A stretch of DNA of 38,497 nucleotides from a virus (lineage: Duplodnaviria; Heunggongvirae; Uroviricota; Caudoviricetes): IMG/VR virus record IMGVR_UViG_3300014533_000149; one strand, given 5' to 3'. The position numbers and the translations under genes are program-made. Under the pieces are notes generated by a model, which was not told where the DNA came from, made no database searches, and worked only from the letters and a program-made list of their open reading frames with translations. The number at the start of each line of letters is the position of its first letter. The first letter of the stretch is position 1. This document shows, in pieces, positions 4,684 through 33,533 of this stretch.

Positions 4684-4700
4684 ATTACCTTTATGGTAAT
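4684..4700. promoter_or_regulatory. Operator-like 17-bp palindrome ATTACC-TTTAT-GGTAAT
   Basis: Perfect dyad; member of a 13-copy intergenic family. Confidence 0.5.
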
Positions 4701-4736
4701 TTGCAAAACGTGCTGGATAGCAAACAAATTATTTGA

Positions 4737-4756
4737 TACTGTATAAATATACAGTT
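4737..4756. promoter_or_regulatory. LexA (SOS) box
   Basis: TACTGTATAAATATACAGTT, a CTGT-N8-ACAG dyad with AT-rich spacer, about 18/20 match to the E. coli LexA consensus; ~20 bp upstream of the 4776 start codon. Confidence 0.65.
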
Positions 4757-4775
4757 ATTGCATGGAGAAGATAAG

Positions 4776-5033
4776 ATGCAGCGGTATCACTATCCACTGG
4801 AAGACGGATTTACCGAAAGGATTCACACGCCGGGAGGCGTCAGGTCACTGGTGGAGGGATCGCACTTGATGAAATTACTCCGGGATCTCGATAAGGATGG
4901 ATTTAATGTCGATGGCCCACTTGCCGAACTGACTGCACTGATTAACTACGTCACCAGCTCACAGATGTCTATGCGGGATCTGCAAACACATCTCGACTAT
5001 TGTGCCGAACAATTACGAAAACAAACCAGATAA
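4776..5033 (+). CDS. Small SOS-box-associated antirepressor-like protein (standalone Ant C-terminal-like domain)
   Basis: 85 aa from ATG 4776 with SD GGAGAAG; ~45% identical by eye to the C-terminal ~65 aa of the Bro-N protein at 5348..6040; LexA box immediately upstream. Confidence 0.55.
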   Translation: MQRYHYPLEDGFTERIHTPGGVRSLVEGSHLMKLLRDLDKDGFNVDGPLAELTALINYVTSSQMSMRDLQTHLDYCAEQLRKQTR

Positions 5034-5063
5034 GGTTTGCAATTACCAAGTGGAGTGCTTATA

Positions 5064-5080
5064 TTTACCTTTGAGGTAAA
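5064..5080. promoter_or_regulatory. Operator-like palindrome TTTACC-TTTGA-GGTAAA
   Basis: Perfect dyad, flanked by inverted repeat GGAGTGC (5052-5058) / GCACTCC (5091-5097). Confidence 0.45.
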
Positions 5081-5163
5081 TTTACATCGCACTCCTCTTG
5101 TGCCATAGTAATCGGGCACTGGCAAAATCCAGTGCCGGGATTGGTCTCCCGGATTACTACAGA

Positions 5164-5193
5164 GGCACATATGCCGCATAAGCGGTTTTTTTT
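5164..5193 (+). terminator. Candidate rho-independent terminator
   Basis: Short GC hairpins (GGCA-CATA-TGCC, CCGC-ATAA-GCGG) followed by an 8-T run; stems are short. Confidence 0.35.
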
Positions 5194-5347
5194 ATGTGTA
5201 AAGCGCACCTATTCTATGGTGGGCTGTGTGGGGGCACCGAAAGGTGCGCCGGGTTCCTTTGTAGCCGGTAAGACCAACTCTGCACAGTTCACCACCATCT
5301 GATTGGTCTCAGCGGTGGTGATTAACCTAACTACAAAGGTGATCGCC

Positions 5348-6040
5348 ATGAATACCAAACCTTCCATCTTTTCCTTTGAGTCATCCTGCCAGATCCGTAT
5401 GTTCATGATTGACGGAGAACCTTGGTTTGTCACCAAAGATGTGTGCAATGCTTTGAATATTGATGTTACACAAGCGAGAAAACTTGATAAAAAAGGCTGG
5501 AACAAAAAGGGGCTGTATTCAATACAGACCCCTGGTGGAATACAAGAACTATCCATCGTTTCAGAATCAGGTCTCTACATCCTTATTCTGCGTTGCAAAG
5601 AGGCAATGACTGAGGGAACGAGAGCATTCAGATTTCTTGAATGGGTTACAGGCGAGGTTCTTCCTCAGATCCGCCGCACCGGAAGTTACATTAAAAACTC
5701 GCTACCGCAGGAAGAACGCATAAAGATGGTTGCCGACCAGGTAGCCAACGCCACGGCGTCAGCAGTAATGCAGGCGATGAAGATAGAGAACAAAACCTAC
5801 AGTGCTCCACTGAAGCCCGGCTACCGTAGCCTGATTCATTCTCCGTCTGGTGTTCTCGGCCTGACGGAGAACTCACTGCTGATGAATCTGCTGAACCAGT
5901 TACAGGACGACGGGCACGACGTATCGGGCGCGGCGGCGGAGCTGACCACCATGTTCTGCTACATCGTTGGTGTGAGCAAATGCCTGCGTGATATCCAGAC
6001 GCACGCGGAGTACATCAACGACAAGGCTGGGTTCTTCTGA
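5348..6040 (+). CDS. Antirepressor (Ant)-like protein with Bro-N N-terminal domain
   Basis: ATG 5348 with SD AAAGGTGA; N-terminal region matches the Bro-N fold pattern (FMIDGEPWFVTKDVCNAL...); C-terminal ~65 aa paralogous to the 4776..5033 product. Confidence 0.65.
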   Translation: MNTKPSIFSFESSCQIRMFMIDGEPWFVTKDVCNALNIDVTQARKLDKKGWNKKGLYSIQTPGGIQELSIVSESGLYILILRCKEAMTEGTRAFRFLEWVTGEVLPQIRRTGSYIKNSLPQEERIKMVADQVANATASAVMQAMKIENKTYSAPLKPGYRSLIHSPSGVLGLTENSLLMNLLNQLQDDGHDVSGAAAELTTMFCYIVGVSKCLRDIQTHAEYINDKAGFF

Positions 6041-6048
6041 CGGGCGGC

Positions 6049-6070
6049 GGCACAGGGATGTGCCTTTAAA
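6049..6070 (+). terminator. Weak terminator-like hairpin after the Ant-like gene
   Basis: GGCACA-GGGA-TGTGCC followed by TTTAAATAAT. Confidence 0.3.
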
Positions 6071-6111
6071 TAATCCTGTACGATTGCAGACCGGGGGGTG
6101 AATAGAGTACT

Positions 6112-6128
6112 ATTACCTTACGGGTGAT
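6112..6128. promoter_or_regulatory. Operator-like imperfect palindrome ATTACC-TTACG-GGTGAT
   Basis: One half-site perfect, the other one mismatch. Confidence 0.35.
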
Positions 6129-6215
6129 CCATAGCGATTAGGCACCGATACAGGAGGAGCCCACATGAGAAAATTTGACGAGTACGAAGGCGTTTAACAT
6201 TCGGATAGTTTAATG

Positions 6216-6239
6216 ACGGGGCCATCAGGCCCCGTTTTC
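6216..6239 (+). terminator. Hairpin terminator/attenuator
   Basis: ACGGGGCC-ATCA-GGCCCCGT followed by TTTTCA; lies between a 10-codon ORF and the 6257 gene. Confidence 0.4.
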
Positions 6240-6256
6240 ATGTCTGGAGACAGTTT

Positions 6257-6796
6257 GTGTTAAGTGAAGAAATGCAATTTGCCATGGCTGTGGCTCAAAT
6301 CGTAAGTGCAGTCGCGGTTTCGCTTGGCTTGTTCATAGCTATCGCTACTATTATTTATAATGTAAATACAGCGAGAAAAGTACACACTTCAGTATTCCTT
6401 GGTGAAAGCAGGTTTGATGTAGATTATAAGAAAGGCCTATCTACTATGCGCCGCATTCACGAGTCGAACAAATCATTCCGCTCTTATATGTATCCAAGCA
6501 ATGGGCAGGCTGATCTTACGGATGAAGAAAAGACAGAGAAGAGAGAAATAATTTACTGTCTAGGTTTCTACGAACGCATGGCTGTGAGCGTGAAGCGGAA
6601 AACTTATGATGAGACCATGATTAAGGAAGTATTTTACAGCTCCGTTGTAAATAACTATCAGATTGCGCTACCTCTTATACAAGCCATTAGAGAAAAAGAA
6701 AACATAAACACATATTTTAAAGAATATGAATGGTTGGCCACACGATGGAAGGATTGCCCATTGAAGGATAAATCCCCGTGGTACAAGTTTTGGTAA
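6257..6796 (+). CDS. Membrane-anchored hypothetical protein (moron; candidate superinfection-exclusion/defence function)
   Basis: 179 aa; N-terminal TM helix then a charged soluble domain; AT-rich; SD GGAGA 6 nt before GTG 6257 (ATG 6272 is an alternative start). Confidence 0.5.
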   Translation: MLSEEMQFAMAVAQIVSAVAVSLGLFIAIATIIYNVNTARKVHTSVFLGESRFDVDYKKGLSTMRRIHESNKSFRSYMYPSNGQADLTDEEKTEKREIIYCLGFYERMAVSVKRKTYDETMIKEVFYSSVVNNYQIALPLIQAIREKENINTYFKEYEWLATRWKDCPLKDKSPWYKFW

Positions 6797-6890
6797 GCCA
6801 GCGCTGCGGGCTTTTTTTGTGGACGAAACAAAAGTCAGTGCTACACTCATTGACGCCACATTGAGGTGGCTTATAGATGGAAATTTCACA

Positions 6891-7052
6891 ATGAAAAAAG
6901 CATTTGCTGCACTGTTCGTTTTGTTGTCTCTGGTAGCTTCAACTCAGGCTTTTGCCGGTCGTTGTCAGCACGACAGCGATACTGCCGCTGACGGCTCCCG
7001 CTGCGGTGGGCGTTCTGCGGATTCCCGCCCGGGTGGCGGTGGCATTCGTTAA
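6891..7052 (+). CDS. Small secreted peptide (53 aa) with signal peptide and two cysteines
   Basis: MKKAFAALFVLLSLVASTQAFA signal-like N-terminus, then a Gly/Arg/Cys-rich 31-aa tail; short ORF, speculative. Confidence 0.3.
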   Translation: MKKAFAALFVLLSLVASTQAFAGRCQHDSDTAADGSRCGGRSADSRPGGGGIR

Positions 7053-7075
7053 AAACAAGGCCGCGAAAGCGGCCT
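7051..7075 (-). terminator. Rho-independent terminator at the end of the late operon
   Basis: On the minus strand AGGCCGC-TTTC-GCGGCCT followed by TGTTTTT; sits just 3' of the last minus-strand gene (7084). Confidence 0.6.
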
Positions 7076-7087
7076 GTGACATGTCAC
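7076..7087. repeat. Perfect 12-bp palindrome GTGACATGTCAC (copy 1 of 2)
   Basis: Identical 12-mer recurs at 27393..27404. Confidence 0.5.
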
Positions 7088-7380
7088 GTCCCTTTTCTGA
7101 ATGATAGCCATTCGAAAAATGATGACATTCCACCGCAGACAACAGCAAAGATGATCCCACCAAAGAAGAGAATGCCAGCCTGCCACCACTCCCACCGCCA
7201 TACATCCACAGCGCCAACCATACCAACAATCGCTCCAACAAATGGAATATAGCTCACGATGAAAGCAATGGGGGCTGCAATTATCCAGTGCAATCCCCAC
7301 CATGATTCAAGCCCAGCCATAATTGCTGCCAACTGAAAAAGACCAACGACGATATAAACAATGAATCCTATAGCTTGCAT
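7084..7380 (-). CDS. Small multi-pass membrane protein (SieA-position candidate)
   Basis: 98 aa, ~3 hydrophobic helices, Trp-rich; SD AGGTGA upstream; follows the last large internal-protein gene. Confidence 0.5.
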   Translation of the reverse strand: MQAIGFIVYIVVGLFQLAAIMAGLESWWGLHWIIAAPIAFIVSYIPFVGAIVGMVGAVDVWRWEWWQAGILFFGGIIFAVVCGGMSSFFEWLSFRKGT

Positions 7381-7392
7381 GTAGTCACCTAT

Positions 7393-7566
7393 TTACCCAG
7401 TAAAAATCAGAGGCCTCCCCTCAATAAGGCTTGCAACAAGAACTATTCCCTGCACAACAAAGATGAACCAGCAAATAGCTTGAGTCTGAGGGTTAAGAAA
7501 ATATTTGTAGCGGTCAATAAATAACAACCCACCAGAAATTATCACACTCAAAATAATTAAAAACAC
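7393..7566 (-). CDS. Small hydrophobic protein (57 aa), below the ORF-track cutoff
   Basis: Hand-translated from GTG 7566 with SD AAGGAAG: MFLIILSVIISGGLLFIDRYKYFLNPQTQAICWFIFVVQGIVLVASLIEGRPLIFTG. Confidence 0.3.
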   Translation of the reverse strand: MFLIILSVIISGGLLFIDRYKYFLNPQTQAICWFIFVVQGIVLVASLIEGRPLIFTG

Positions 7567-7575
7567 AACACTTCC

Positions 7576-10050: not shown

Positions 10051-10055
10051 TTAAT

Positions 10056-19661: not shown

Positions 19662-20648
19662 TTACACCACGCGGGCTTCTGTTTCCAGAAGCGCATCAGT
19701 TTCACGGATTGGTACACCACGGAATGAAGTCCACCACTCGCCTTCAGTCTCTTTTACGCTGATAGCCAGAGATGTTTTCTCCAGAGATTGCAGATCAAGA
19801 GCCTGGCCTACAGTGCGGTTCATGTAGAACACCGGGCGGCCCATGCCACGGTTTGGAATGCGATGCAGTGCTTTAACCATCAACTTCGCAATATTTGCGG
19901 CAGAGGAAGGTTCTGAAAGATTGTTGACATCGATGTTTGCAATGCGAACAACATAACGCCAGTCACGCAGAGCAAGTCCGTTATCCCATTTATAATGGGT
20001 GCGATAGCCTTCGTACTTGCCGCCATTAGCATCTTCCAGTGTCACCTGGCCTTTATCTTCCATCTGGATGCCAGCCTTCTGCCCTTTCGGGAAGATACCA
20101 TGCACGGTGTTTTCGCCCCACACCACTAACCAGATTGAGGTGTTATCTGTACCCGTGCCACCAGCATCAATGATGTTCTGAGCATTACCCGCAGACAGGC
20201 TGGAATAGCGGGAGGACAATCCCATAAACTGCTGAGGGTTAACGCTGGAATCACCATAAAACAACGTCTGCGCCATCTGCTGATTCATCGCTTCAATAAA
20301 TGCGCGGTCTTCAGACAGGCGGAATTCGGCGGTATTACCGTTCAGATCAGCCAGTGACTTATCGACTTCAGCATAGGTTTCCAGCATGCCAACGGAATCG
20401 GTTACCTGCACTGTGGTTGATTTGCTTGGCTGTACGCCATAGTTCAGCAAACGCCAGGTAGCTGAAGGTAAACCAGAACGAATGGTGGTTCGGTGTCCGG
20501 TAGGAAGGTTCCCTTCGACAAAAGGCATATCCTGAAGGATCGGGTTAGTTTGACCGAGAAGCTCGATAATCTTATCGACTTTCCCGTTTGGATCGACGCG
20601 CTTACCCCAGTCAGCCAGCGTTAGCGCAGTTAAGCCTTTAACAGCCAT
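19662..20648 (-). CDS. Major capsid protein
   Basis: About 328 aa from the second ATG (SD AGAGGA at good spacing); size and position after the scaffold-like gene fit a major capsid protein. Confidence 0.7.
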   Translation of the reverse strand: MAVKGLTALTLADWGKRVDPNGKVDKIIELLGQTNPILQDMPFVEGNLPTGHRTTIRSGLPSATWRLLNYGVQPSKSTTVQVTDSVGMLETYAEVDKSLADLNGNTAEFRLSEDRAFIEAMNQQMAQTLFYGDSSVNPQQFMGLSSRYSSLSAGNAQNIIDAGGTGTDNTSIWLVVWGENTVHGIFPKGQKAGIQMEDKGQVTLEDANGGKYEGYRTHYKWDNGLALRDWRYVVRIANIDVNNLSEPSSAANIAKLMVKALHRIPNRGMGRPVFYMNRTVGQALDLQSLEKTSLAISVKETEGEWWTSFRGVPIRETDALLETEARVV

Positions 20649-23643: not shown

Positions 23644-23660
23644 ATTACCTTTCAGGTAAT
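23644..23660. promoter_or_regulatory. Operator-like palindrome ATTACC-TTTCA-GGTAAT
   Basis: Perfect dyad upstream of the portal-proximal part of the late operon. Confidence 0.5.
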
Positions 23661-23980: not shown

Positions 23981-24057
23981 GTGGCATTAGCTCAGTTGGA
24001 CAGAGCAACCGCCTTCTAAGCGGTTGGTCGCAGGTTCGAATCCTGCATGCCACGCCA
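23981..24057 (+). tRNA. tRNA-Arg (anticodon UCU)
   Basis: 77 nt; cloverleaf by hand: acceptor GTGGCAT/ATGCCAC, D-stem GCTC/GAGC, anticodon stem ACCGC/GCGGT with loop CTTCTAA, T-arm GCAGG-TTCGAAT-CCTGC, 3' CCA; differs from E. coli argU in stems as recalled. Confidence 0.85.
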
Positions 24058-24100
24058 GAATCACGCCTAAGGACCGTGATGCCAGAAGTTCCAAGTGCTT

Positions 24101-24144
24101 GGCGGTGATGGTTTCCCTTGAAGGACTATCACCGCCCTTTTTAC
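24101..24144 (+). terminator. Rho-independent terminator downstream of the tRNA
   Basis: GGCGGTGAT...ATCACCGCC stem followed by CTTTTT. Confidence 0.55.
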
Positions 24145-24220
24145 AGCAGGACGCCATTGCGATGACTTCATGCTGTAAACCCGTACAGCCACGGAAGGCA
24201 TAACTCATTGCTTCCAGTTC

Positions 24221-24245
24221 GCCCACTTCAGTGGGCTTTTTTTTC
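24221..24245 (+). terminator. Rho-independent terminator
   Basis: GCCCAC-TTCA-GTGGGC followed by 8-9 T. Confidence 0.65.
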
Positions 24246-24257: not shown

Positions 24258-24274
24258 ATTACCTTATGGGTAAT
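24258..24274. promoter_or_regulatory. Operator-like palindrome ATTACC-TTATG-GGTAAT
   Basis: Perfect dyad ~30 bp upstream of the 24306 start. Confidence 0.5.
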
Positions 24275-24305
24275 ATGCTGCAAACAAATAACACAAGGCC
24301 GTGAC

Positions 24306-25196
24306 ATGCTTGACTTCATCCGTGACATTTACTCCTCTTTCCGCCAAGCATCTCTTGAGCGGGTGAAAAGCCCGTTCCTTGGGGCATTTGTTTTTTCCTG
24401 GCTTTGCTTTAATTGGCAGATGTTAGCAATTCTATTTTTTAGTTCTAAGGATATTGAAAAGCGCCTTGCTATTATTAATGGCTCTTTCGGCATCGTCAGC
24501 TTTTTAATTGCGCCAATATGCACTACAGCATTGATAGTTATCCTTTTACCGCAAATTAATAAATTAATTACAATAATACAAGATAAACCTAACTCAGACA
24601 CAATTGAAATGAGCCTTGCATCTAAAATAAAGATCGCCGAACTGCAGCAACTATTAGCAGAAAATGAAGCAAGAAAGAAACTTGCTGATAAAAAAGAAGA
24701 ACGCTTCATTGAAGAGAATATTATTTCAATAAAAAAAGACCATGAAAAAGCAATAGATAACCTTAAAGACAAAGAAAGTAAAATCTTAAATCTCACGGAC
24801 ACAATAACTGAACTTCAGAGCAAACTGGTTAAAGCTGAGGCCACTCTCAAAGTTGAACAGGAGTCAAGATCCCAAGTGCAGAATGAATTGATTATTGAAA
24901 AAGAGAACAAGCGGAAATTAGAAGACAACATTCTGCACCTTAATTTAAGTTTAAAAAAAAACCAATCAGAATTGGCCATTGCAAAAGAAGCCTATGATAA
25001 TACCTTGATGGCTTATAATGAACTTAACACAACATTAAAAAAAGCAGAAAGCTCAATAATAAACTTCAATGCTAACTTTCCTTTTTTAACTGACATAAAT
25101 AACAGCACCCCAAATACATACTTAAAAATAAATAAAAATGCATGGGAGCATTTAGTTAGTTTAAATTTAAGTCTAAAGGAGAAAATACAAAAATAA
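24306..25196 (+). CDS. Membrane-anchored coiled-coil protein (moron; candidate exclusion/abortive-infection function)
   Basis: 296 aa; two hydrophobic helices in the first ~90 aa then a long Lys/Glu/Leu-rich coiled-coil-like region; strongly AT-rich; opposite strand to the flanking late genes. Confidence 0.55.
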   Translation: MLDFIRDIYSSFRQASLERVKSPFLGAFVFSWLCFNWQMLAILFFSSKDIEKRLAIINGSFGIVSFLIAPICTTALIVILLPQINKLITIIQDKPNSDTIEMSLASKIKIAELQQLLAENEARKKLADKKEERFIEENIISIKKDHEKAIDNLKDKESKILNLTDTITELQSKLVKAEATLKVEQESRSQVQNELIIEKENKRKLEDNILHLNLSLKKNQSELAIAKEAYDNTLMAYNELNTTLKKAESSIINFNANFPFLTDINNSTPNTYLKINKNAWEHLVSLNLSLKEKIQK

Positions 25197-25219
25197 ATAA
25201 CCAATCCACTATGGCATAT

Positions 25220-26689: not shown

Positions 26690-27282
26690 TGATTACCATC
26701 CTGACGTTCTTTGAGTCGCTTCCTGGCTGCTGCTATGCGATCAGCAATTGTCACATTCACATTAACATCCAGACGTTCTTTGAACGCGTTGACATCAACA
26801 TGCTTACCAATCAGCTCAAGGTTCTTCACCTTGTCAGGCCATTTAATTTTTTTGAGGATTGTCTCTATCGAATCCTCGTTCATGTTCATGATGGTCGATG
26901 ACAGATCAAAGCCACTAAGCGTAGTGCGCCAGATTTTCGGCCACTCACGGATTGGTTTAAGGCTCCCATCGTCGTTGAGGATGTCGATCACGTCCATCTG
27001 GTCGATCTCCACCAGGCGCATGAGAACGTAATCAGCACTGACGCGCATTCGTTTGTTGCGCTCCTCCATCAACTCGGCAATCCGTTTTTGAATGCGTTCA
27101 TCGCGCATCATGACACTGGCTTTAACTGCCGCTGTATTTGGAGAGAATCCTGCGTTAATCGCTGCCTGAGTCTGGTTTTCAGGCGTTTTGATGTATGACT
27201 GGCAATAAGCCTCCTGCATTGCTGTTAGTGGCTTAAATTGCGTTGATTTGCGTTTATAGGTTTTAGGTTCAGCAGGCATCAT
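26686..27282 (-). CDS. terS: Terminase small subunit
   Basis: About 198 aa from ATG 27282; small-terminase-like N-terminal DNA-binding region; directly upstream of terL. Confidence 0.65.
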   Translation of the reverse strand: MMPAEPKTYKRKSTQFKPLTAMQEAYCQSYIKTPENQTQAAINAGFSPNTAAVKASVMMRDERIQKRIAELMEERNKRMRVSADYVLMRLVEIDQMDVIDILNDDGSLKPIREWPKIWRTTLSGFDLSSTIMNMNEDSIETILKKIKWPDKVKNLELIGKHVDVNAFKERLDVNVNVTIADRIAAARKRLKERQDGNQ

Positions 27283-27289
27283 AACCACC

Positions 27290-27321
27290 GTGGTAATAGT
27301 TACCGTTGTGGTAATAGTACC
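27290..27321. repeat. Tandem direct repeats GTGGTAATAGTTACC / GTGGTAATAGTACC
   Basis: Two copies 18 bp apart immediately upstream of terS; each contains a GGTAAT half-site in everted arrangement. Confidence 0.5.
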
Positions 27322-27322
27322 A

Positions 27323-27351
27323 TGCAAAATAAAGCCGCCATAGTTGGCGGC
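27323..27351 (-). terminator. Rho-independent terminator between early/nin genes and the late operon
   Basis: On the minus strand GCCGCC-AACTAT-GGCGGC followed by TTTATTTTG. Confidence 0.6.
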
Positions 27352-27392
27352 AGTATTCAAAACCCATCAAATTCATCATGCATAATCTACTC

Positions 27393-27404: not shown

Positions 27405-27742
27405 ACTATTAATTTCGTTTCATGCCAGCCTTTAGTCACCCAGCATTGCGAGTCACCATTACACGGGCATGAATTAACTGGAACTCTCTCGCCGCACTTA
27501 CCGCAACATTTTCTGCTGATCGATTTTATACGCCCGCGCACGCGTGCATCATCCTGGTGGATCAGTAACGCTATATACTCACCAAATTCGTAAGGCGCAC
27601 GCCCGGGGCGACGCGTGGCACAGTTACGCTCCAGCATTTCAATTTCCTGAGCATCAAGCACAATTTCCAGCTTACGCACACCGGATTCAGCTTGTCTGGC
27701 TCTCTGAGCGGCTTTGCGCTCTGCTGCTGATTTAGCCATCAA
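27401..27742 (-). CDS. Putative small DNA-binding protein with C-terminal Cys cluster (candidate late regulator)
   Basis: 113 aa; N-terminus resembles a ribbon-helix-helix pattern; C-terminus CCGKCGERVPVNSCPCNGDSQC; last gene before the terminator and terS. Confidence 0.45.
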   Translation of the reverse strand: MMAKSAAERKAAQRARQAESGVRKLEIVLDAQEIEMLERNCATRRPGRAPYEFGEYIALLIHQDDARVRGRIKSISRKCCGKCGERVPVNSCPCNGDSQCWVTKGWHETKLIV

Positions 27743-28013
27743 TATTCACCTTTATCGCGAACACCTTTACCGGTTTATCGCCGAAGTGGGGATGTGTGAT
27801 TGTCTTGATTTCATAGCCGTCATACGGGACGTCTATTCTACGGCTGGAATCGTCGCGCTTCGGATATCCCTTTGTGATAATCAGGCGGTCATACTCCCGG
27901 AACATAATTCGCTTATTCCAGTAGTCATTACACAGGCGATACTCTTCCGTTTTCTCGCCTGACTTCATCTGGTCGAAATATTCACCGTTAACTGCCAGTT
28001 GCAGGTTAGCCAC
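27732..28013 (-). CDS. Hypothetical protein, possible ASCH/PUA-like fold
   Basis: 93 aa; weak recollection-based similarity only. Confidence 0.4.
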   Translation of the reverse strand: MANLQLAVNGEYFDQMKSGEKTEEYRLCNDYWNKRIMFREYDRLIITKGYPKRDDSSRRIDVPYDGYEIKTITHPHFGDKPVKVFAIKVNIDG

Positions 28014-28854: not shown

Positions 28855-29093
28855 TTGTTAATCCTCAAAACTTTATGCCCGGGCGCAAAAGCACGTGTTT
28901 TGTCTTTACTTATTCGCCACCCGTCTTTACGGGCCTCTTTTGCACAACCAGACCATGACGTACCGATATACTCACCGAAGTCTGGCACTGGATATACACC
29001 TTCCGTACACTGGCGGCAGTCACAATAGAGATGCATGGTGTAACTTGCAGCGATAGCCATATCACTCTCCTTTGATGCGAATGCCTGTTGCAA
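28851..29093 (-). CDS. Small Cys-rich hypothetical protein
   Basis: CxC-x2-C...C pattern; start may be the internal ATG at about 29060. Confidence 0.4.
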   Translation of the reverse strand: MQQAFASKESDMAIAASYTMHLYCDCRQCTEGVYPVPDFGEYIGTSWSGCAKEARKDGWRISKDKTRAFAPGHKVLRINK

Positions 29094-29198
29094 TGCTGTT
29101 TATGATGCTGTCAGTGCATGGGGTAGAAAGCTGGGCATCTCCAGCAATTTTCATGACATCAACATCTGCATATCGAATACCGAGGTGTATCAGACCGG

Positions 29199-29507
29199 CT
29201 ATGCCTGACTTAAGCCGAGCATTTTCCATAAATAGAACTTTTGCCCGCTGTTTTTCTGCTTCAAGCTCAACGCGCAGCTTCCNNNNNNNNNNNNNNNNNN
29301 NNNNNNNNNNNNNNNNNNNNNNNNNNNNNNNNNNNNNNNNNNNNNNTCCCGTTCATCCAGCAGTGCCAGCGCGATATCTGGCGAAAAGTGCTTCATAAAA
29401 TCGTTAAGCGCATTAATTCGCTGATCGAAGGGCATTACAGGTGCTTCACCAGCAATTTTTGTTTTTTCAGCGATTTCACGAAGCTTTTGATAATCAATCT
29501 TGCTCAC
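29199..29507 (-). CDS. ead/Ea22-like early protein, interrupted by an N run
   Basis: Coiled-coil-like N-terminus; the reading frame crosses 64 N so frame and length are unreliable. Confidence 0.3.
   Translation of the reverse strand: MSKIDYQKLREIAEKTKIAGEAPVMPFDQRINALNDFMKHFSPDIALALLDERXXXXXXXXXXXXXXXXXXXXXXGSCALSLKQKNSGQKFYLWKMLGLSQA
29283..29346. other. Run of 64 N (assembly gap or masked sequence)
   Basis: Directly visible; not a multiple of 3. Confidence 0.99.
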
Positions 29508-29938
29508 TGGTTGCCTCCTTTGCGAAGCTCAGCGGCGAAGGCTACTGCGTGATCATGATGTTCAAGCGTGTATGCACACTCCGCAAACATCTCCACGCCC
29601 TGCGCCCGCACTTCAGCCAGGAAAGCATCGGTGGCTGTGGTTTCGATATCGTTAATTTCAGGAAGAATCTCTTCCCATGTAGCGATATCGCCATTCAAAT
29701 GCCATCCGGCAATTCCACTGGAGTTATCCGCAACACTCCGAACGGCTTCAATAGTTTCATGCATTGCCGCATTCTCCGCTGCCAGCGCATTAGCACGCAC
29801 CAATTGCACTTCCAGTTGCGTTGCCAAATCGCTGATCAGCTTTGCCACACTGCGCATATCAACGGCACCACATTCAGCTTTCAGTTCCGAAGCCATCTCA
29901 TGCCCGGCGGAAACTAACCCTTTGATATTACTTTCCAT
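29504..29938 (-). CDS. Hypothetical early (Ea-like) protein
   Basis: 144 aa, acidic; ATGA-type overlap with the downstream gene. Confidence 0.5.
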   Translation of the reverse strand: MESNIKGLVSAGHEMASELKAECGAVDMRSVAKLISDLATQLEVQLVRANALAAENAAMHETIEAVRSVADNSSGIAGWHLNGDIATWEEILPEINDIETTATDAFLAEVRAQGVEMFAECAYTLEHHDHAVAFAAELRKGGNQ

Positions 29939-29999
29939 CTTTACCCTCGCTTATCCACATAACTTATTGATTACATTGATAACTAAAAAGATCGTCGAT

Positions 30000-30347
30000 T
30001 CAGAACTCTTCGATGTTCCAGCCGCCACCTGCTTTCTTTGGTTTAACCGTTACCCCGATGATTCGGAACGGATACTGATCTGCGGCTACTTTGGTTTTCA
30101 CCCTGGCGTCGTCGGTCCAGAATCCCCCTTTCACTTCGTGCAGTTCCATCTCTCCGGTGGCGAGCATCACAGCGAAATCGGGCGTATAGAACGTGTTGTC
30201 AGCTAACCGCAGCTTAATACCCTCGAATCGATACCAGGCGATTTCCCCTGCACGTTTACGCTGCTCAAGGTGCTGGCAATACGCAGATTCTGTTTTGTTC
30301 ATCTGGCCTGTTTTGAGTCGACCAAGAGCCTGTATCTGTTTTCTCAT
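30000..30347 (-). CDS. DUF1064-like protein with PD-(D/E)xK nuclease-like motif
   Basis: 115 aa; D...ExK arrangement (YTPDFAV...ELHEVKG); first gene after the P-like gene. Confidence 0.45.
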   Translation of the reverse strand: MRKQIQALGRLKTGQMNKTESAYCQHLEQRKRAGEIAWYRFEGIKLRLADNTFYTPDFAVMLATGEMELHEVKGGFWTDDARVKTKVAADQYPFRIIGVTVKPKKAGGGWNIEEF

Positions 30348-30349
30348 GA

Positions 30350-30366
30350 TTTACCTCTAAGGTAAT
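30350..30366. promoter_or_regulatory. Operator-like palindrome TTTACC-TCTAA-GGTAAT
   Basis: Overlaps the RBS/5'UTR of the 30347 gene and the -10 of the candidate promoter. Confidence 0.5.
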
Positions 30367-30393
30367 TAAAAACCACATAAGACACGAAATCAA
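30365..30393 (-). promoter_or_regulatory. Candidate sigma70 promoter for the nin-like operon
   Basis: Minus strand: -35 TTGATT (30393..30388), 17-bp spacer, -10 TTTAAT (30370..30365); flanked by two operator-like palindromes. Confidence 0.4.
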
Positions 30394-30411
30394 TAGATTT
30401 TAGAATATTTT

Positions 30412-30428
30412 ATTACCCAACAGGTAAT
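30412..30428. promoter_or_regulatory. Operator-like palindrome ATTACC-CAACA-GGTAAT
   Basis: Perfect dyad just upstream of the candidate -35. Confidence 0.5.
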
Positions 30429-30464
30429 TATCAAGACGTAAAAAAATGCGCTATCGCGCTGGTA

Positions 30465-31250
30465 TTACTTGATAAATCCTGCCGCCTTTCCCCGCCTGTA
30501 TTCCTCCATCAGCCACTGCGCCGGTGTTATTCCCCCAAGGGTGGCGGCGTTAGGCATGCACCCGAAACTTCGCCCTGGTGGATGGTAAACGTCTCTCCCT
30601 GTGTCCGGAGGTGTACTCATGGGCTCTCGCTTTGCCTGTATGCTGATCACCGGATCGGGTATCTGCTGTCCGGAAGCTACCTTTTTCGCCCAATCATCGA
30701 GCAGCCTGCGCGCGTGTTTCTCAACCTCAATCTCGCTAAGCTGGCGCTGATACATTGCACGGCGGGTATCACATACGACCCAGTACATAACCGGATGTCG
30801 CCACGGGAATCTTTCGGGACCACCAGGATATAAACTTTTTTCCTTGCTGTACCGGTGAAACTCCGCCATCACATCGTCAATGGTGACGCCAAGAACCATC
30901 TTGCTGTCTTTACACCACTTGATGAATTGCCCTGGCGACGGCCAGAACGGAGACTCACTGGCGCGGGCGTGGCGCATACCAGCAGAAACCTGTTCACGGG
31001 TTCGGATCCCCCCTTCGGCAAACGCAGCAATCCACTGCTGTTTTGCAGCAACTTCCTGCTCTGGCGTCTTCAGGTTGGTTACCACTGCCGCCGGAAACAG
31101 TTGTTTCAGCTGTTTGAAAAGGGCATCAACAAGCCTCTCTGCTGACATGTTCACCACGTTGTCATTGTTGGTGTACTGATGCTCATAACCTGACATGCGA
31201 GAAAGGGCTTCTCCGTCACGGTTTTGTATCGCGGTAAAAACGTTGTTCAC
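30465..31250 (-). CDS. Replication protein P-like (helicase loader)
   Basis: Resembles lambda P around FPAAVV...WIAAFAEGGIRTREQVSAGMRHARASESPFWPSPGQFIKWCK; likely GTG start at 31250 with SD GGGAGGA, overlapping the O-like stop (GTGA). Confidence 0.7.
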   Translation of the reverse strand: MNNVFTAIQNRDGEALSRMSGYEHQYTNNDNVVNMSAERLVDALFKQLKQLFPAAVVTNLKTPEQEVAAKQQWIAAFAEGGIRTREQVSAGMRHARASESPFWPSPGQFIKWCKDSKMVLGVTIDDVMAEFHRYSKEKSLYPGGPERFPWRHPVMYWVVCDTRRAMYQRQLSEIEVEKHARRLLDDWAKKVASGQQIPDPVISIQAKREPMSTPPDTGRDVYHPPGRSFGCMPNAATLGGITPAQWLMEEYRRGKAAGFIK

Positions 31251-32062
31251 AAGAAATCCTCCCATGCTTCAGGGCTGTTCCAGTGCGGAACGTTGTTATC
31301 AGGTAATGTTGATTGCTTCTGTCTGCTAATCTGCAGCCGCCTTGCCAGCTTCTGCTCCCACTGTGCCTGATGGTATGCCTTACCCTCAGCCATCCAGTAA
31401 ATTCTGAACTCTGCAAGTTCCTGTGCCGTTGGCAGACTGTCCAGGTAGATCCCCTGCAATGAGCTTTTCCGAAGAAAGTCATCTGATGGCTGCCATTGTT
31501 CATGCATGACAAATTTGCCTAATTGCCCTGGCCCACCAGGAGGAACAAAGTTATTCATCACGGCGTTGTTTGCGCCGGGGTCATGATGCACAGAATCCCC
31601 GTTTTTTGTCCTGCTCTCCCTCTCTTGGTTAAATGACTGGTTATATGACTGGTTCTGGATCCCGTTTTTGGGATCATTCAACATCCCGTTTTTGGGATCA
31701 TTCAACATCCCGTTTTTGGGTATATTCCCGTTTTCGGTAACATTACCGTTTTCGGGTTCATTGCCCCCCTCTCGGTTGCCTTTAATGTTCCCGTTTTTGG
31801 TTATATTAAGAGAGAAAACCCGCACTCTTTTTGTCGCTCCCTTTCTCTCTCCGGTATCTGAAATAAGCCCCATTTTCATGAGCGATATAAGCCCGGCCTG
31901 CACGGTTTTTTTATTCAGGCAAGTGTCTTTAACGAGGCGTTCTATGCTGGGGTAGCAGAGGTTATATTCATCGGCTCTGTCAGCCATCGAGAGCAGTATG
32001 AGCTTTAATGATGAGCTACCTGGATCTGTCTCCCAGGCCCAATCTGTTGCATGTCTGCTCAT
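31247..32062 (-). CDS. Replication initiator O-like protein with DnaT-like C-terminal domain
   Basis: N-terminal winged-helix-like region; repetitive PKNGMLND linker encoded by iterons; C-terminus (GKFVMHEQWQP...IYWMAEGKAYHQAQWEQKLARRLQ) resembles E. coli DnaT C-terminus as recalled. Confidence 0.7.
   Translation of the reverse strand: MSRHATDWAWETDPGSSSLKLILLSMADRADEYNLCYPSIERLVKDTCLNKKTVQAGLISLMKMGLISDTGERKGATKRVRVFSLNITKNGNIKGNREGGNEPENGNVTENGNIPKNGMLNDPKNGMLNDPKNGIQNQSYNQSFNQERESRTKNGDSVHHDPGANNAVMNNFVPPGGPGQLGKFVMHEQWQPSDDFLRKSSLQGIYLDSLPTAQELAEFRIYWMAEGKAYHQAQWEQKLARRLQISRQKQSTLPDNNVPHWNSPEAWEDFL
31658..31808. repeat. Iteron array, candidate replication origin inside the O-like gene
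   Basis: At least six direct repeats built on CCCGTTTTTGGG / CCGTTTTCGG with ~24-bp periodicity, two perfect 24-bp copies at 31661 and 31685; AT-rich stretch follows. Confidence 0.65.
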
Positions 32063-32077
32063 GATTAATCTCCGCTA

Positions 32078-32278
32078 TCAGCTTGAATGTTGTGGGGAGG
32101 AATTAATCATGATCTGCTTAATCTCAGCCCTGATGCGACGGTTTGATTCCATGGTGCACTCAACACAGTGTCCGTTGTAAACCCAACGTTCACTGTCATG
32201 TCCGTGCTTACATGGTTTTCCGGTGTAGTAGCGTTTAAGTCCGCGCTTTGCGGCATCAATACGTGTAATGATTTCCAT
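32078..32278 (-). CDS. Small zinc-finger-like protein
   Basis: About 66 aa from ATG 32278; CKHGH...CVEC motif; track ORF begins at a TTG without an RBS. Confidence 0.4.
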   Translation of the reverse strand: MEIITRIDAAKRGLKRYYTGKPCKHGHDSERWVYNGHCVECTMESNRRIRAEIKQIMINSSPQHSS

Positions 32279-32357
32279 GGTAAGCCCTGTTATTAGTATT
32301 GGGATTACGGTCATTTTGTGCTGACACAAAAAAAAGATCAACCAGATTTGGTTTTTT

Positions 32358-32374
32358 ATTACCTTTGAGGTGCG
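32358..32374. promoter_or_regulatory. Operator-like half-palindrome ATTACC-TTTGA-GGTGCG
   Basis: One perfect half-site, degenerate partner. Confidence 0.3.
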
Positions 32375-32428
32375 AATAGATATGAAAAGACCGCCGGGTG
32401 GCGGTCTACAGAGGGTTGTGGCTGGATA

Positions 32429-32659
32429 TCATGAGTAGAAGAAGTATGCCAGTTCTGCTTTTGAGCGCAGCCATTGTCTTGTTTTACAGGCTTTAAAAAG
32501 CCCATTCATCAATACTTTACCTGGCATTTTGCGCTTACCTGTTAAGTGAGTCTGGATATAGTGACTCGTCGTTCCGGCTTCCTGTGCGAAGGCTTCACGC
32601 TCATCCGGAGTAAGTGCAAGCCAGTGCTTTTTGAAATCGAAATGTCCGTTATCGCTCAT
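32429..32659 (-). CDS. Cro-like (YdaS-like) HTH regulator
   Basis: 76 aa; divergent from the repressor-like gene; helix-turn-helix-like core GTTSHYIQTHLTGKRKMPG. Confidence 0.55.
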   Translation of the reverse strand: MSDNGHFDFKKHWLALTPDEREAFAQEAGTTSHYIQTHLTGKRKMPGKVLMNGLFKACKTRQWLRSKAELAYFFYS

Positions 32660-32684
32660 AGCTATTGCCTGATATTTATTTCAG

Positions 32685-32713
32685 ATAATAAATATTCACC
32701 CATAAGGTAACAA
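32685..32713 (-). promoter_or_regulatory. Candidate PR-like promoter for the cro-like gene
   Basis: Minus strand: -35 TTGTTA (32713..32708), 17-bp spacer, -10 TATTAT (32690..32685); overlapped by the 32695 operator. Confidence 0.35.
32695..32711. promoter_or_regulatory. Switch-region operator-like site TTCACC-CATAA-GGTAAC
   Basis: Imperfect dyad; overlaps the candidate -35. Confidence 0.45.
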
Positions 32714-32725
32714 AAATCAAGGATA

Positions 32726-32742
32726 GTTACCTATGGGGTGCA
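32726..32742. promoter_or_regulatory. Switch-region operator-like site GTTACC-TATGG-GGTGCA
   Basis: Imperfect dyad, abuts the next site. Confidence 0.35.
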
Positions 32743-32759
32743 TTTACCTGTTGGGTAAT
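32743..32759. promoter_or_regulatory. Switch-region operator-like site TTTACC-TGTTG-GGTAAT
   Basis: Near-perfect dyad ~55 bp upstream of the repressor-like start. Confidence 0.5.
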
Positions 32760-32813
32760 ATTGCTTTAAATTGAATCATCTACTGATTCATATACGAGGC
32801 GATTTTCCAGAAA

Positions 32814-33398
32814 ATGAAAAGTATCCAGGACGTCCGCAGGCAAAATCTCAACGACTTGATCGACCGTGAATTCAATGGTGTTCAGACGCGGATGGCAGAA
32901 AAACTTGGAACTCAGGCAAATCTGGTAAACCGCTGGGCTCTTGGCAAGAAGGTTATCGGCGACCAGGTTGCGCGAAAAATTGAAGCTGCCGCCAATAAAC
33001 CCCGTAACTGGCTTGATATCGATCGCTCGCTTTCTCAGGAAGGTTTTCAGCCTGTCGGCCCAAGCGACATTGGTCAGCTGGCGGCTCACAACCTGGAACG
33101 CTGGATGAGCGAAAGCCGCGACCTTTCAACACAGGGAAAACTTCACCGCGCATCCGGCGTCGCCCAGGTGACAATCAGCCGCCTGTTAAACAATGAGGTC
33201 AGCGTTTCCATTTCCACCCTGGAGAATGTTGCATCCGCATTCGGGCGTCACGGCTATGAATTACTGATTCACCCGCACGACCCTGCGACCATCAACTATG
33301 ACCGCTCGCGCTACGCATTGTTACCCGAAACCGAGAAAGCAAAGATCGAAAGTTACATTGAATTTGTCATCAACCAGAACGAAAAAAACAAACAATAA
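32814..33398 (+). CDS. Tandem-HTH repressor-like protein, no peptidase S24 autocleavage domain seen (putative prophage repressor)
   Basis: 194 aa with two Cro/C1-type HTH-like segments (about aa 5-65 and 100-165); weak SD; divergent from the cro-like gene; own terminator downstream. Confidence 0.6.
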   Translation: MKSIQDVRRQNLNDLIDREFNGVQTRMAEKLGTQANLVNRWALGKKVIGDQVARKIEAAANKPRNWLDIDRSLSQEGFQPVGPSDIGQLAAHNLERWMSESRDLSTQGKLHRASGVAQVTISRLLNNEVSVSISTLENVASAFGRHGYELLIHPHDPATINYDRSRYALLPETEKAKIESYIEFVINQNEKNKQ

Positions 33399-33420
33399 AA
33401 TCATATTTTTCAGTAAGTAA

Positions 33421-33443
33421 GCCGCCTTCTGGCGGCTTTTTTA
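33421..33443 (+). terminator. Rho-independent terminator after the repressor-like gene
   Basis: GCCGCC-TTCT-GGCGGC followed by 6 T. Confidence 0.7.
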
Positions 33444-33454
33444 TTGTCTACACA

Positions 33455-33471
33455 ATTACCTTAAGGGTAAT
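33455..33471. promoter_or_regulatory. Operator-like palindrome ATTACC-TTAAG-GGTAAT
   Basis: Perfect dyad ~19 bp upstream of the candidate -35. Confidence 0.5.
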
Positions 33472-33489
33472 TTTTTTAACTCATATCTA

Positions 33490-33518
33490 TTGACACCAAA
33501 CCAAATACGCATAATCAT
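33490..33518 (+). promoter_or_regulatory. Candidate PL-like early promoter
   Basis: -35 TTGACA (33490..33495), 17-bp spacer, weak -10 AATCAT (33513..33518) running into the next operator; same layout as the 30365..30393 promoter. Confidence 0.4.
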
Positions 33519-33533
33519 TACCTCAACGGTAAC
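33517..33533. promoter_or_regulatory. Operator-like palindrome ATTACC-TCAAC-GGTAAC
   Basis: Overlaps the candidate -10/+1 and supplies the SD (GAGGTAA) for the 33552 ORF. Confidence 0.45.

What the first reader, a model, noticed from the sequence alone, without database searches (positions are those of the whole stretch)
4684..33533. Genome-wide family of a 17-bp palindromic operator-like motif
At least 13 intergenic copies of (A/T)TTACC-N5-GGTAA(T): 4684, 5064, 6112, 23644, 24258, 30350, 30412, 32358, 32695, 32726, 32743, 33455 and 33517. Six-bp half-sites with a 5-bp spacer are the geometry expected for an HTH dimer. Copies sit at the immunity switch, at both candidate early promoters, upstream of the morons and near the antirepressor genes. 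This looks like one regulator, probably the tandem-HTH repressor or the Cro-like protein, controlling many promoters across the prophage, comparable to the stoperator networks of some mycobacteriophages.
Basis: seen in the sequence. Interest (0 to 1): 0.8.

Follow-up and report, generated by a model that had tools for sequence, protein, structure and literature searches.

The report
Known repressor operators of phiV10-like prophage
The repeated 15-17 bp palindrome is real and is almost certainly the binding site of the prophage's main repressor, but the same sites are already annotated in the sister phage epsilon15, so this is a rediscovery.

Summary
TTACC-N5-GGTAA occurs 10 times exactly (0.02 expected), and all 10 copies fall in the ~7% of the window that is non-coding. 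Five degenerate intergenic copies bring the total to 15.

The window is a phiV10/epsilon15-type (Uetakevirus) prophage. The same palindrome is enriched in phiV10, epsilon15, SPC32H, Tyrion and BUCT711, at syntenic places. The epsilon15 GenBank record already labels seven of these sites "protein_bind: repressor".

The window's 194-aa repressor is identical to phiV10's. It is a full-length homolog of the crystallised tetrameric SPC32H Rep. Its partner Ant, behind a perfect LexA box, is also present.

Sites overlap promoter elements of at least three transcription units. Two conserved cassettes hold a promoter between two operators 62 bp apart.

Best reading: one repressor, probably sharing sites with the Cro-like protein, directly silences most transcription units. 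The stoperator analogy fails on symmetry, orientation and placement.

Novelty: already known. Interest: low to moderate. The only partly fresh angle is the 62-bp operator-promoter-operator geometry in relation to the Rep tetramer.

The parts
4685..4699 (.). Operator, exact (TTACCTTTATGGTAA), between the divergent tailspike and ant genes; it abuts the TTTGCA -35-like hexamer of the ant promoter
   Evidence: Syntenic with epsilon15 19895-19911, annotated 'protein_bind repressor', and with SPC32H 20013.
4737..4755 (+). Perfect LexA box TACTGTATAAATATACAGT, about 20 nt upstream of ant
   Evidence: The same arrangement (operator, TTTGCA, LexA box, ant) occurs in SPC32H.
4776..5033 (+). Ant, the small antirepressor that binds the Rep C-terminal domain
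   Evidence: Match to PDB 5D50 chain E 'Anti-repressor protein', E = 3.5e-46.
5065..5079 (.). Operator, exact, spanning about -7 to +7 of a TTTGCA-18-TATATT promoter that reads into isrK, C4 RNA and the Bro-N/Ant-like gene
5116..5299 (+). isrK-like sRNA (5116-5192) and C4 antisense RNA (5212-5299), leader of the second antirepressor gene
   Evidence: Rfam: 74.7 bits and 78.6 bits, both above the gathering scores.
5303..6040 (+). Second antirepressor candidate: Bro-N domain fused to an Ant-like C-terminal domain
   Evidence: Pfam Bro-N, E = 2e-13. phrog_130 'anti-repressor Ant', and phrog_450 (the Ant family) over residues 162-243. tblastn of phiV10 p24 gives 42% identity at 5798-6025.
6113..6127 (.). 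Operator with 1 mismatch (TTACCTTACGGGTGA), downstream of the Bro-N gene and upstream of a 10-codon ORF, a terminator and the DUF4760 gene
   Evidence: No counterpart was found in phiV10.
23645..23659 (.). Operator, exact, 91 nt upstream of p06 and the portal operon (- strand); on the + strand it lies where the -10 of a consensus TTGACA promoter facing tRNA-Arg would be
   Evidence: Syntenic with epsilon15 2931-2947, annotated as a repressor site.
24259..24273 (.). Operator, exact, 33 nt upstream of the inserted 296-aa gene (24306-25196, +)
   Evidence: No counterpart was found in phiV10.
27282..27314 (.). Adjacent operator pair (27300 exact, 27282 with 1 mismatch; 18 bp centre to centre), between a terminator (27351-27334, -) and the true terS start (27279)
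   Evidence: Syntenic with epsilon15 12-27, annotated as a repressor site, plus epsilon15 30-44.
30351..30427 (-). Operator-promoter-operator cassette (operators 30413-30427 and 30351-30365, both exact, 62 bp apart), upstream of the DUF1064 gene and the distal early-right genes
   Evidence: The distal site is syntenic with epsilon15 35906-35922, annotated as a repressor site.
32359..32373 (.). Degenerate operator (2 mismatches), just after the cro-like gene's terminator and upstream of p42-DnaT-P
   Evidence: One-mismatch counterparts occur at the same place in phiV10 (33112), Tyrion (35365) and BUCT711 (6032).
32429..32659 (-). Cro-like small HTH protein (phiV10 p41 / epsilon15 gp39), a candidate second binder of the same sites
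   Evidence: phrog_35 'transcriptional repressor', E = 5.6e-13. AGTTSHYIQTHLT is almost fully invariant (one position, T/V, varies) across 5 phages.
32696..32758 (.). Tripartite operator of the immunity switch between the cro-like gene and rep: 32696 (1 mismatch, over the -35/spacer of the leftward promoter TTGTTA-17-TATTAT), 32727 (2 mismatches), 32744 (exact); spacings 31 and 17 bp
   Evidence: epsilon15 has 33388/33358/33341 with spacings 30 and 17 bp.
32814..33398 (+). Rep, the prophage repressor (194 aa)
   Evidence: 100% identical to phiV10 p40 and ZX5 ORF21. Match to PDB 5D50 chain A, E = 4e-42, over residues 1-190. N-terminal HTH NLVNRW is invariant.
33456..33532 (+). Early-left operator-promoter-operator cassette: distal operator 33456-33470, TTGACA (33490) -17- AATCAT (ends 33518), proximal operator 33518-33532 over about -7 to +7; 62 bp centre to centre
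   Evidence: Syntenic with epsilon15 32616-32632 and 32554-32570, both annotated as repressor sites.

Best explanation
The palindromes are the operators of the prophage repressor Rep (window 32814-33398), a tetrameric SPC32H/epsilon15-type repressor.

Inferred mechanism: pairs of N-terminal HTH domains read the two TTACC half-sites, and the central 5 bp are not read. In the lysogen, Rep sits on about 15 sites that mark the start of nearly every transcription unit:
- the rep/cro switch (three sites);
- the early-left and distal early-right promoters, each clamped between two sites 62 bp apart, with the proximal one over -10/+1;
- the ant promoter, also locked by LexA;
- the promoter of the isrK/C4/Bro-N antirepressor module;
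- the region just before terS;
- the head-operon leader;
- two inserted accessory genes.

Induction is inferred to follow the SPC32H route. DNA damage removes LexA, Ant is made, Ant binds the Rep C-terminal domains, and Rep leaves all operators at once. The Cro-like protein probably uses the switch sites as well.

Shown here: the motif, its enrichment, its placement, its synteny and the protein homologies. Inferred: physical binding, which promoters are active, and any looping.
For: 1. Enrichment and intergenic restriction.
2. The same palindrome is strongly enriched in five further Uetakevirus genomes. An unbiased palindrome scan ranks it first in the two genomes it could score, phiV10 and SPC32H.
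3. Seven epsilon15 copies are deposited as 'protein_bind: repressor, lysogeny'. Six window sites are their positional orthologs.
4. Rep is a full-length homolog of SPC32H Rep. Ant is a homolog of SPC32H Ant. The LexA box precedes ant in both phages.
5. Secondary literature reports that SPC32H Rep binds palindromic DNA sites as a tetramer and that Ant disassembles it. Its layout is a DNA-binding domain, a dimerisation domain and a tetramerisation domain.
6. In 12 aligned cassettes from 6 phages only the four half-sites, CTATTGA (-35) and the register are conserved; the rest has diverged.
7. The Rep N-terminal HTH is invariant although the proteins are only ~43% identical overall, matching the invariant half-site.
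8. Overexpressing the identical Rep in ZX5 lowered endolysin and holin mRNA by 99.99% and 99.97%.
9. Operators overlap the best promoter matches: PL 10/12 and 5065 9/12, each with the operator at about -7 to +7, and the leftward switch promoter 9/12 with the operator at -32 to -18.
Against: - No binding data for this prophage or for phiV10 were available. The primary papers (Kropinski 2007, Kim and Ryu 2013, Kim 2016) are not in the held library, so the exact operator sequence used in their assays was not verified.
- The Cro-like protein is as conserved as the Rep N-terminal domain, so conservation does not show which protein binds.
- Several sites (terS pair, 24259, 6113, 23645 on the - strand) lack a convincing sigma-70 promoter, so 'promoter occlusion' is not established there.
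- The epsilon15 annotation may itself be only a prediction.
Confidence: 0.85

Rival explanations
1. The sites belong mainly or only to the Cro-like protein (32429-32659). They would act as lytic-phase shut-off sites, with Rep recognising something else.
For: The Cro-like protein matches a 'transcriptional repressor' PHROG. Its putative recognition helix is almost fully invariant across the genus (one position varies), as is the motif. In lambda-type switches Cro shares the operators.
Against: The epsilon15 record assigns the sites to the repressor. Rep is a tetramer reported to bind palindromic sites, which fits the paired sites. No other enriched palindrome exists for Rep to use. Overexpressed Rep silences late genes. 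Shared use at the switch remains likely and is part of the main explanation.
Confidence: 0.07
2. Some copies act as stoperator-like roadblocks to elongating RNA polymerase rather than as promoter operators. Candidates are those just downstream of terminators with no clear promoter: the terS pair, 32359, 24259 and 6113.
For: The terS pair lies between a terminator and the start codon, with no sigma-70 match above 8/12 on the coding strand. Site 32359 follows the cro-like gene's terminator. Site 30351 lies downstream of one predicted promoter and covers the ribosome-binding site.
Against: The sites are palindromic, so they have no orientation relative to transcription. None lies inside the long operons. 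The clearest cases overlap -10/+1 or -35. Activator-dependent promoters, which the scan cannot see, would explain the apparently promoter-less sites.
Confidence: 0.06
3. The copies are not functional binding sites. They would be left over from duplication of promoter cassettes, or be shared module-boundary sequences that promote recombination.
For: The two O-P-O cassettes are clearly paralogous. Two sites (6113, 24259) flank inserted accessory genes that phiV10 lacks.
Against: Within cassettes and between phages only the half-sites, the -35 and the spacing are conserved, while central and flanking bases vary freely. That is the signature of selection on protein contacts, not of recent duplication. 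The motif persists across phages of four host genera.
Confidence: 0.02

Closest known systems
Repressor-binding sites of Salmonella phage epsilon15 (GenBank AY150271.2; Kropinski et al. 2007) and the Rep/Ant/LexA immunity system of the epsilon15-like phage SPC32H (Kim and Ryu 2013; Kim et al. 2016; PDB 5D50, 5D4Z)
   Same: Same half-sites and 5-bp spacer, at the same genomic positions. Homologous Rep and Ant. The same LexA box sits before ant. Same genus.
   Different: The window's Rep is only ~42% identical to the epsilon15 and SPC32H Rep, mostly because of C-terminal divergence. This prophage has extra sites at two inserted genes and a second antirepressor module with isrK and C4 RNAs. The epsilon15 record omits the switch sites and the proximal site of the distal early-right (DUF1064/RuvC) cassette, which the scans find.
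Lambda-type OR/OL operators
   Same: About 17-bp two-fold symmetric sites. There is a tripartite array between divergent repressor and cro-like genes. Operators overlap -35/-10.
   Different: The sites are not confined to two operator regions; they are dispersed over about 8 loci, including the packaging and head regions. Rep has no S24 autocleavage domain and is inactivated by an antirepressor. Rep is a tetramer whose DNA-binding pairs come from different dimers.
Phage P1 C1 repressor network, with many dispersed operators and the immI c4-ant module (comparison from general knowledge)
   Same: A single repressor has operators scattered across the genome at many promoters. A C4 antisense RNA sits upstream of an antirepressor gene.
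   Different: P1 operators are asymmetric and are read by monomeric C1. C1 is unrelated to Rep. Here the sites are palindromes read by paired HTH domains.
Stoperators of cluster A mycobacteriophages such as L5 and Bxb1 (comparison from general knowledge)
   Same: There are many copies of one repressor site outside the immunity region, confined to non-coding DNA.
   Different: Stoperators are asymmetric 13-mers, number 20-30 or more, are oriented with transcription and lie within operons to stop elongation. Here there are 15 palindromes at operon starts and none inside the ~16-kb structural operon.
Tetrameric looping repressors such as Rco of pLS20 (operators 75 bp apart; PMC9986798), LacI and GalR
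   Same: A tetramer has two DNA-binding pairs, and two operators bracket a promoter at a short fixed distance on the same helical face (62 bp, about 5.9 turns). The Rep tetramerisation domain is reported to be structurally similar to that of Rco.
   Different: Looping by Rep has not been shown. The sites are single palindromes, not arrays of direct repeats.

Membership tests
Uetakevirus (epsilon15/SPC32H-type) Rep operator network | Palindrome TTACC-N5-GGTAA, enriched and intergenic | tested here: met
   10 exact copies against 0.02 expected, all intergenic. The same motif is enriched in five relatives.
Uetakevirus (epsilon15/SPC32H-type) Rep operator network | Sites at positions syntenic with the deposited epsilon15 'protein_bind: repressor' features | tested here: met
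   The epsilon15 features at 12, 2931, 19895, 32554, 32616 and 35906 correspond to window sites 27300, 23645, 4685, 33518, 33456 and 30413.
Uetakevirus (epsilon15/SPC32H-type) Rep operator network | Rep with an N-terminal HTH DNA-binding domain plus C-terminal dimerisation and tetramerisation/Ant-binding region | tested here: met
   phmmer against PDB 5D50_A, E = 4e-42, residues 1-190 aligned to 2-197. Domain layout taken from PMC9986798.
Uetakevirus (epsilon15/SPC32H-type) Rep operator network | Cognate small antirepressor Ant under LexA control | tested here: met
   Ant homolog, E = 3.5e-46. A perfect LexA box lies upstream, as in SPC32H.
Uetakevirus (epsilon15/SPC32H-type) Rep operator network | Physical, sequence-specific binding of Rep to the palindrome | not testable with these tools
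   Needs EMSA, footprinting or ChIP. The primary papers are not held.
Mycobacteriophage stoperators | Asymmetric site with orientation tied to the direction of transcription | tested here: not met
   The sites are perfect hyphenated palindromes.
Mycobacteriophage stoperators | Copies distributed within operons, in short intergenic gaps throughout the genome | tested here: not met
   There is no copy between 7576 and 23333, the structural operon. All copies lie at operon boundaries.
Mycobacteriophage stoperators | Blocks elongation rather than initiation | not testable with these tools
   Needs read-through reporter or transcriptome data.
Lambda CI-type repressor/operator system | Repressor with an S24 peptidase domain for RecA-stimulated autocleavage | tested here: not met
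   Pfam finds only HTH families in Rep. Inactivation is by Ant in the homologous system.
Lambda CI-type repressor/operator system | Tripartite operator between divergent repressor and cro genes | tested here: met
   Sites 32696, 32727 and 32744 lie between the cro-like gene (-) and rep (+).
P1 immI-type c4-ant module | C4 antisense RNA directly upstream of an antirepressor gene | tested here: met
   Rfam C4 (RF01695), 78.6 bits, at 5212-5299 and ending 3 nt before the Bro-N/Ant-like ORF.

The most novel reading that the evidence does not exclude
The invariant 62-bp operator-promoter-operator cassette is the natural substrate of one Rep tetramer. Its two DNA-binding pairs would grip both palindromes on the same helical face and wrap or loop the about 47 bp that carry the -35 and -10. 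The cassette was found at two promoters in each of six phages and is followed by conserved A/T-tracts. On this reading the genus keeps one universal operator specificity while the Rep C-terminal, Ant-binding part diverges. Immunity and induction specificity would then be set by antirepressor pairing rather than by operator recognition. Published commentary states that the structural mechanism of repression by this Rep is not well characterised.
Probability: 0.35. Interest if true: 0.45.

Novelty: already known. Interest (0 to 1): 0.22.

Why it matters
This is mainly an annotation result. It shows that phiV10-type prophages of E. coli, including O157:H7 phages used as reporter and typing phages, carry the same dispersed repressor-operator network already deposited for epsilon15. 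It adds sites that the phiV10 record lacks and corrects the phiV10 terS start.

The network explains how one repressor, released by a LexA-controlled antirepressor, could switch early, replication, packaging and accessory units together. The conserved 62-bp two-operator promoter cassette gives a concrete, testable substrate for the unusual 'trans' tetramer seen in the SPC32H Rep structures. It is not a new kind of system.

Tried and rejected
- **Primary literature.** I tried to read Kropinski 2007 (PMC2698709 and by PMID), Kim and Ryu 2013 (PMC3807360) and Kim 2016 (PMC4983836). None is held. A full-text search for ATTACC/GGTAAT with repressor and phage found nothing relevant. A Uetakevirus/operator search found only the ZX5 paper, which does not define operators.
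- **Separating Rep from Cro by conservation.** Both recognition helices are invariant or almost so, so this was uninformative.
- **Motif/helix covariation in distant Rep-NTD homologs.** Moraxella phage Mcat9 shows a related but different palindrome family, which is suggestive only. Pseudomonas phage PseuP_224 gave nothing significant.
- **Promoter scans.** These are at background frequency overall and are trusted only where conserved across phages.
- **RNA hairpin or terminator reading of the motif.** Rejected: the stem is 5 bp, the copies have no strand bias and sit at promoters. Real terminators lie next to the sites, not in them.
- **Pure-chance explanation.** Rejected by the shuffles.
- **Python scan of all genomes.** Three loci were not exported to /data, so the DNA search was used for them instead.

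Full report

Yes. TTACCNNNNNGGTAA has 10 exact matches in the 38,497-bp window. Dinucleotide shuffles give 0.02 on average and never more than 1. With one mismatch allowed there are 14 matches against 0.73 expected.

- Nine are exact.
- 6113 and 32696 have one mismatch.
- 32359 and 32727 have two mismatches, both with GGTGC as the right arm.

Two-mismatch matches are common in coding DNA (19 of them). Those two copies therefore rest on position and on orthologous copies in relatives, not on statistics.

This pair appears to lie inside terS. Aligning the ORF with three other terS proteins shows that the conserved protein starts at M28, window 27279. The 27 extra codons of the phiV10-style annotation merely translate a terminator (27351-27334) and the two operators.

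With that correction, all 10 exact copies and 13 of 14 copies with up to one mismatch lie in the 7% of the window that is non-coding (P about 3e-12 and 1e-14). The central 5 bp and the outer flanks vary freely. Only the two 5-bp arms, and a weak A/T preference at the flanking position, are conserved.

**2. What is the element?**

The window is a phiV10/epsilon15-type podovirus prophage (genus Uetakevirus). It runs from the Rz gene to the integrase gene, in reverse orientation relative to the phiV10 record. It is 98% identical over the immunity region to phages PAS61, BP9 and phiV10. Most proteins are 90-100% identical to phiV10 proteins.

The ORF at 32814-33398 is 100% identical to the phiV10 'putative transcriptional repressor' p40 and to the ZX5 repressor.

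**3. Is the motif already known?**

Yes, for the family.
- The epsilon15 GenBank record AY150271.2 carries seven 'protein_bind' features of 16-17 bp labelled repressor/lysogeny.
- Scanning epsilon15 shows these are exactly TTACC-N5-GGTAA. Four further exact copies are not annotated, including the pair in the rep/cro-like intergenic region.
- The same palindrome is enriched in phiV10 (8 exact), SPC32H (10), Klebsiella phage BUCT711 (9) and Enterobacter phage Tyrion (9). In each case no shuffle reached the observed count.
- An unbiased scan of all 5-mer inverted repeats with spacers of 0-12 ranks it first in phiV10 and SPC32H.
- The positions are syntenic: before terS (adjacent pair), before the small gene preceding portal, between ant and the tailspike gene, three in the switch region, a pair after rep, and a pair before the DUF1064/RuvC gene.
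- Six window sites are positional orthologs of annotated epsilon15 repressor sites.
- The phiV10 record annotates no operators.

**4. Who binds the sites?**

Rep matches the crystallised repressor of the epsilon15-like phage SPC32H over its full length (PDB 5D50_A, E = 4e-42). The small ORF at 4776-5033 matches its antirepressor Ant (5D50_E, E = 3.5e-46).

A perfect LexA box, TACTGTATAAATATACAGT, lies about 20 nt upstream of ant. SPC32H has the same order: operator, TTTGCA, LexA box, ant.

Secondary sources add the following about SPC32H Rep:
- It binds DNA as a tetramer.
- The pairs of DNA-binding domains that contact the palindromic sites come from different dimers.
- Tetrameric Ant splits the tetramer (PMC9638917).
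- The protein is built as N-terminal DNA-binding domain, middle dimerisation domain and C-terminal tetramerisation/Ant-binding domain.
- The two dimerisation-domain pairs lie about 100 Å apart.
- Its repression mechanism 'has not been extensively characterized' (PMC9986798).

The 'tandem HTH' reported by Pfam is therefore not two DNA-reading heads in one chain.

Across five phages the Rep proteins are only 43-78% identical. Even so, the N-terminal HTH segment, including NLVNRW, is invariant, in line with the invariant half-site.

The Cro-like protein (32429-32659; phrog_35 'transcriptional repressor') is equally conserved. Conservation therefore cannot separate the two candidates. By analogy with other switches it probably shares at least the three switch sites.

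Functional support comes from the ZX5 study. Overexpressing the identical Rep reduced endolysin and holin transcripts by 99.99% and 99.97% and abolished free phage (PMC9782041).

**5. Anatomy and likely mechanism**

*Switch region.* Three sites (32696, 32727, 32744; spacings 31 and 17 bp) lie between the cro-like gene and rep. Site 32696 covers the -35 and spacer of the best leftward promoter. epsilon15 has the same layout, with spacings of 30 and 17 bp.

*Two paralogous cassettes.*
- The first is 33456-33532 (+), after the rep terminator, reading into p39-p38-recE/T-AlpA-PerC-Dam.
- The second is 30427-30351 (-), after the replication genes, reading into DUF1064 and the distal early genes.
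- Aligning the 12 cassettes from six phages shows invariance only in the four half-sites, CTATTGA (-35) and the register.
- The layout is distal operator, 19 nt, -35, 17 nt, then a -10-like hexamer whose last T is the first T of the proximal operator.
- The proximal operator thus spans about -7 to +7.
- Centre-to-centre spacing is 62 bp in 11 of 12 cassettes and 63 bp in one, about 5.9 helical turns, which places both sites on the same face.

*Geometry (inference only).* A tetramer with two DNA-binding pairs about 100 Å apart fits the 31-bp pair on straight DNA. It could bridge the 62-bp pairs only by bending the promoter DNA.

*Other sites.*
- Site 5065 overlaps -10/+1 of a 9/12 promoter. That promoter reads into an isrK-like sRNA, a C4 antisense RNA and a Bro-N/Ant-like fusion protein.
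- Site 4685 abuts the ant -35.
- The terS pair, 23645, 24259 and 6113 have no strong sigma-70 match on the relevant strand. There, repression of an activator-dependent promoter or a roadblock both remain possible.
- Sites 24259 and 6113 sit next to genes absent from phiV10 and have no phiV10 counterpart.

**6. Comparison with known systems**

This is a member of the epsilon15/SPC32H Rep-Ant-LexA immunity system. Every sequence-testable defining feature is met.

It resembles lambda in operator symmetry and the tripartite switch. It differs in site dispersal and in having no autocleavage domain.

It resembles phage P1 in having one repressor with many scattered operators and a C4-ant module. P1 operators, however, are asymmetric and read by an unrelated monomer.

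The stoperator analogy fails on the features that could be tested. These sites are symmetric, have no orientation, number 15, lie only at operon boundaries, and are absent from the ~16-kb structural operon.

**7. Verdict**

The stoperator comparison and the implied novelty are not supported. The feature is already annotated in the closest classical relative, and the protein partners have solved structures.

Residual interest lies in the strictly conserved 62-bp operator-promoter-operator cassette as a candidate looping substrate for the Rep tetramer. It also lies in the genus-wide constancy of operator specificity despite divergence of the Rep C-terminal region.

Confidence that these are Rep operators is about 0.85. 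Novelty: already known. Interest: about 0.2.

Noticed in passing
window 4737-4755 and 4776-5033: A perfect LexA box lies directly upstream of a homolog of the SPC32H antirepressor Ant. phiV10 annotates this gene only as 'hypothetical protein p24'. The prophage therefore seems to be SOS-induced through an antirepressor, not through repressor cleavage.
   Followed up: yes
window 5116-5192, 5212-5299, 5303-6040: Rfam finds an isrK Hfq-binding sRNA and a C4 antisense RNA in tandem. They lie just upstream of a 245-aa protein that fuses a Bro-N domain to an Ant-like C-terminal domain. This looks like a second, P1 immI-like, RNA-controlled antirepressor module. A terminator at 5173-5186 separates the two RNAs.
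   Followed up: partly
window 23981-24057 (+): A tRNA-Arg (anticodon TCT) lies antisense to the late operon and overlaps the ORF that phiV10 annotates as hypothetical protein p04 (23987-24235, -). SPC32H annotates the tRNA at the same place. The p04 ORF may not be a real gene.
   Followed up: partly
window 27279-27360: The phiV10-style terS start is probably 27 codons too far upstream. The extension translates a terminator plus the two operators, and terS of epsilon15, SPC32H and Tyrion starts at the equivalent of window 27279.
   Followed up: yes
window 31626-31762: An array of short repeats lies inside the DnaT-like replication gene: a 24-bp unit in 2.6 copies at 100% identity, plus related 18-bp and 12-bp units, each containing the small palindrome TCCCGTTTTTGGGA. 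It looks like an origin of replication with iterons, as in lambda gene O.
   Followed up: partly
window 32669-32684: A LexA-like palindrome, CTGATATTTATTTCAG, lies about 10 nt upstream of the cro-like start codon and next to operator 32696. Its significance is unknown.
   Followed up: no
window 6150-6256: Downstream of operator 6113 there is a strong Shine-Dalgarno sequence (AGGAGG), a 10-codon ORF (MRKFDEYEGV) and a hairpin terminator, all before the DUF4760 gene at 6257. This may be a leader or attenuator arrangement.
   Followed up: no
window 29283-29346: A run of 64 N (masked or unassembled sequence) lies within the early-right accessory gene region.
   Followed up: no
L001 26870, L002 26882, L003 26960, L005 28568, L004 12620 (outside the window, just beyond 38497): All five relatives carry a conserved one-mismatch copy (TTACCYTAAAGGTAT) between attP and the integrase start, so int may also be under weak Rep control. 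The window ends at the int start codon and does not include this site.
   Followed up: no
L007 (Moraxella phage Mcat9) 2350-2495 and 4105-4170: A protein sharing only the Rep N-terminal domain (36% identity, different recognition helix) is flanked by a related but distinct palindrome family, TTACYTTTAAAGTAA. There are 10 matches with up to 2 mismatches against 1.7 expected. This hints that the HTH family generally reads TTAC...GTAA sites.
   Followed up: partly
window 1811-1973: The relatives have an exact or one-mismatch operator upstream of the lysis cassette (epsilon15 24704, phiV10 24692, SPC32H 24782, Tyrion 26408). This prophage lacks the oac module between the tailspike gene and the lysis genes. 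It has no copy there with up to 2 mismatches.
   Followed up: partly
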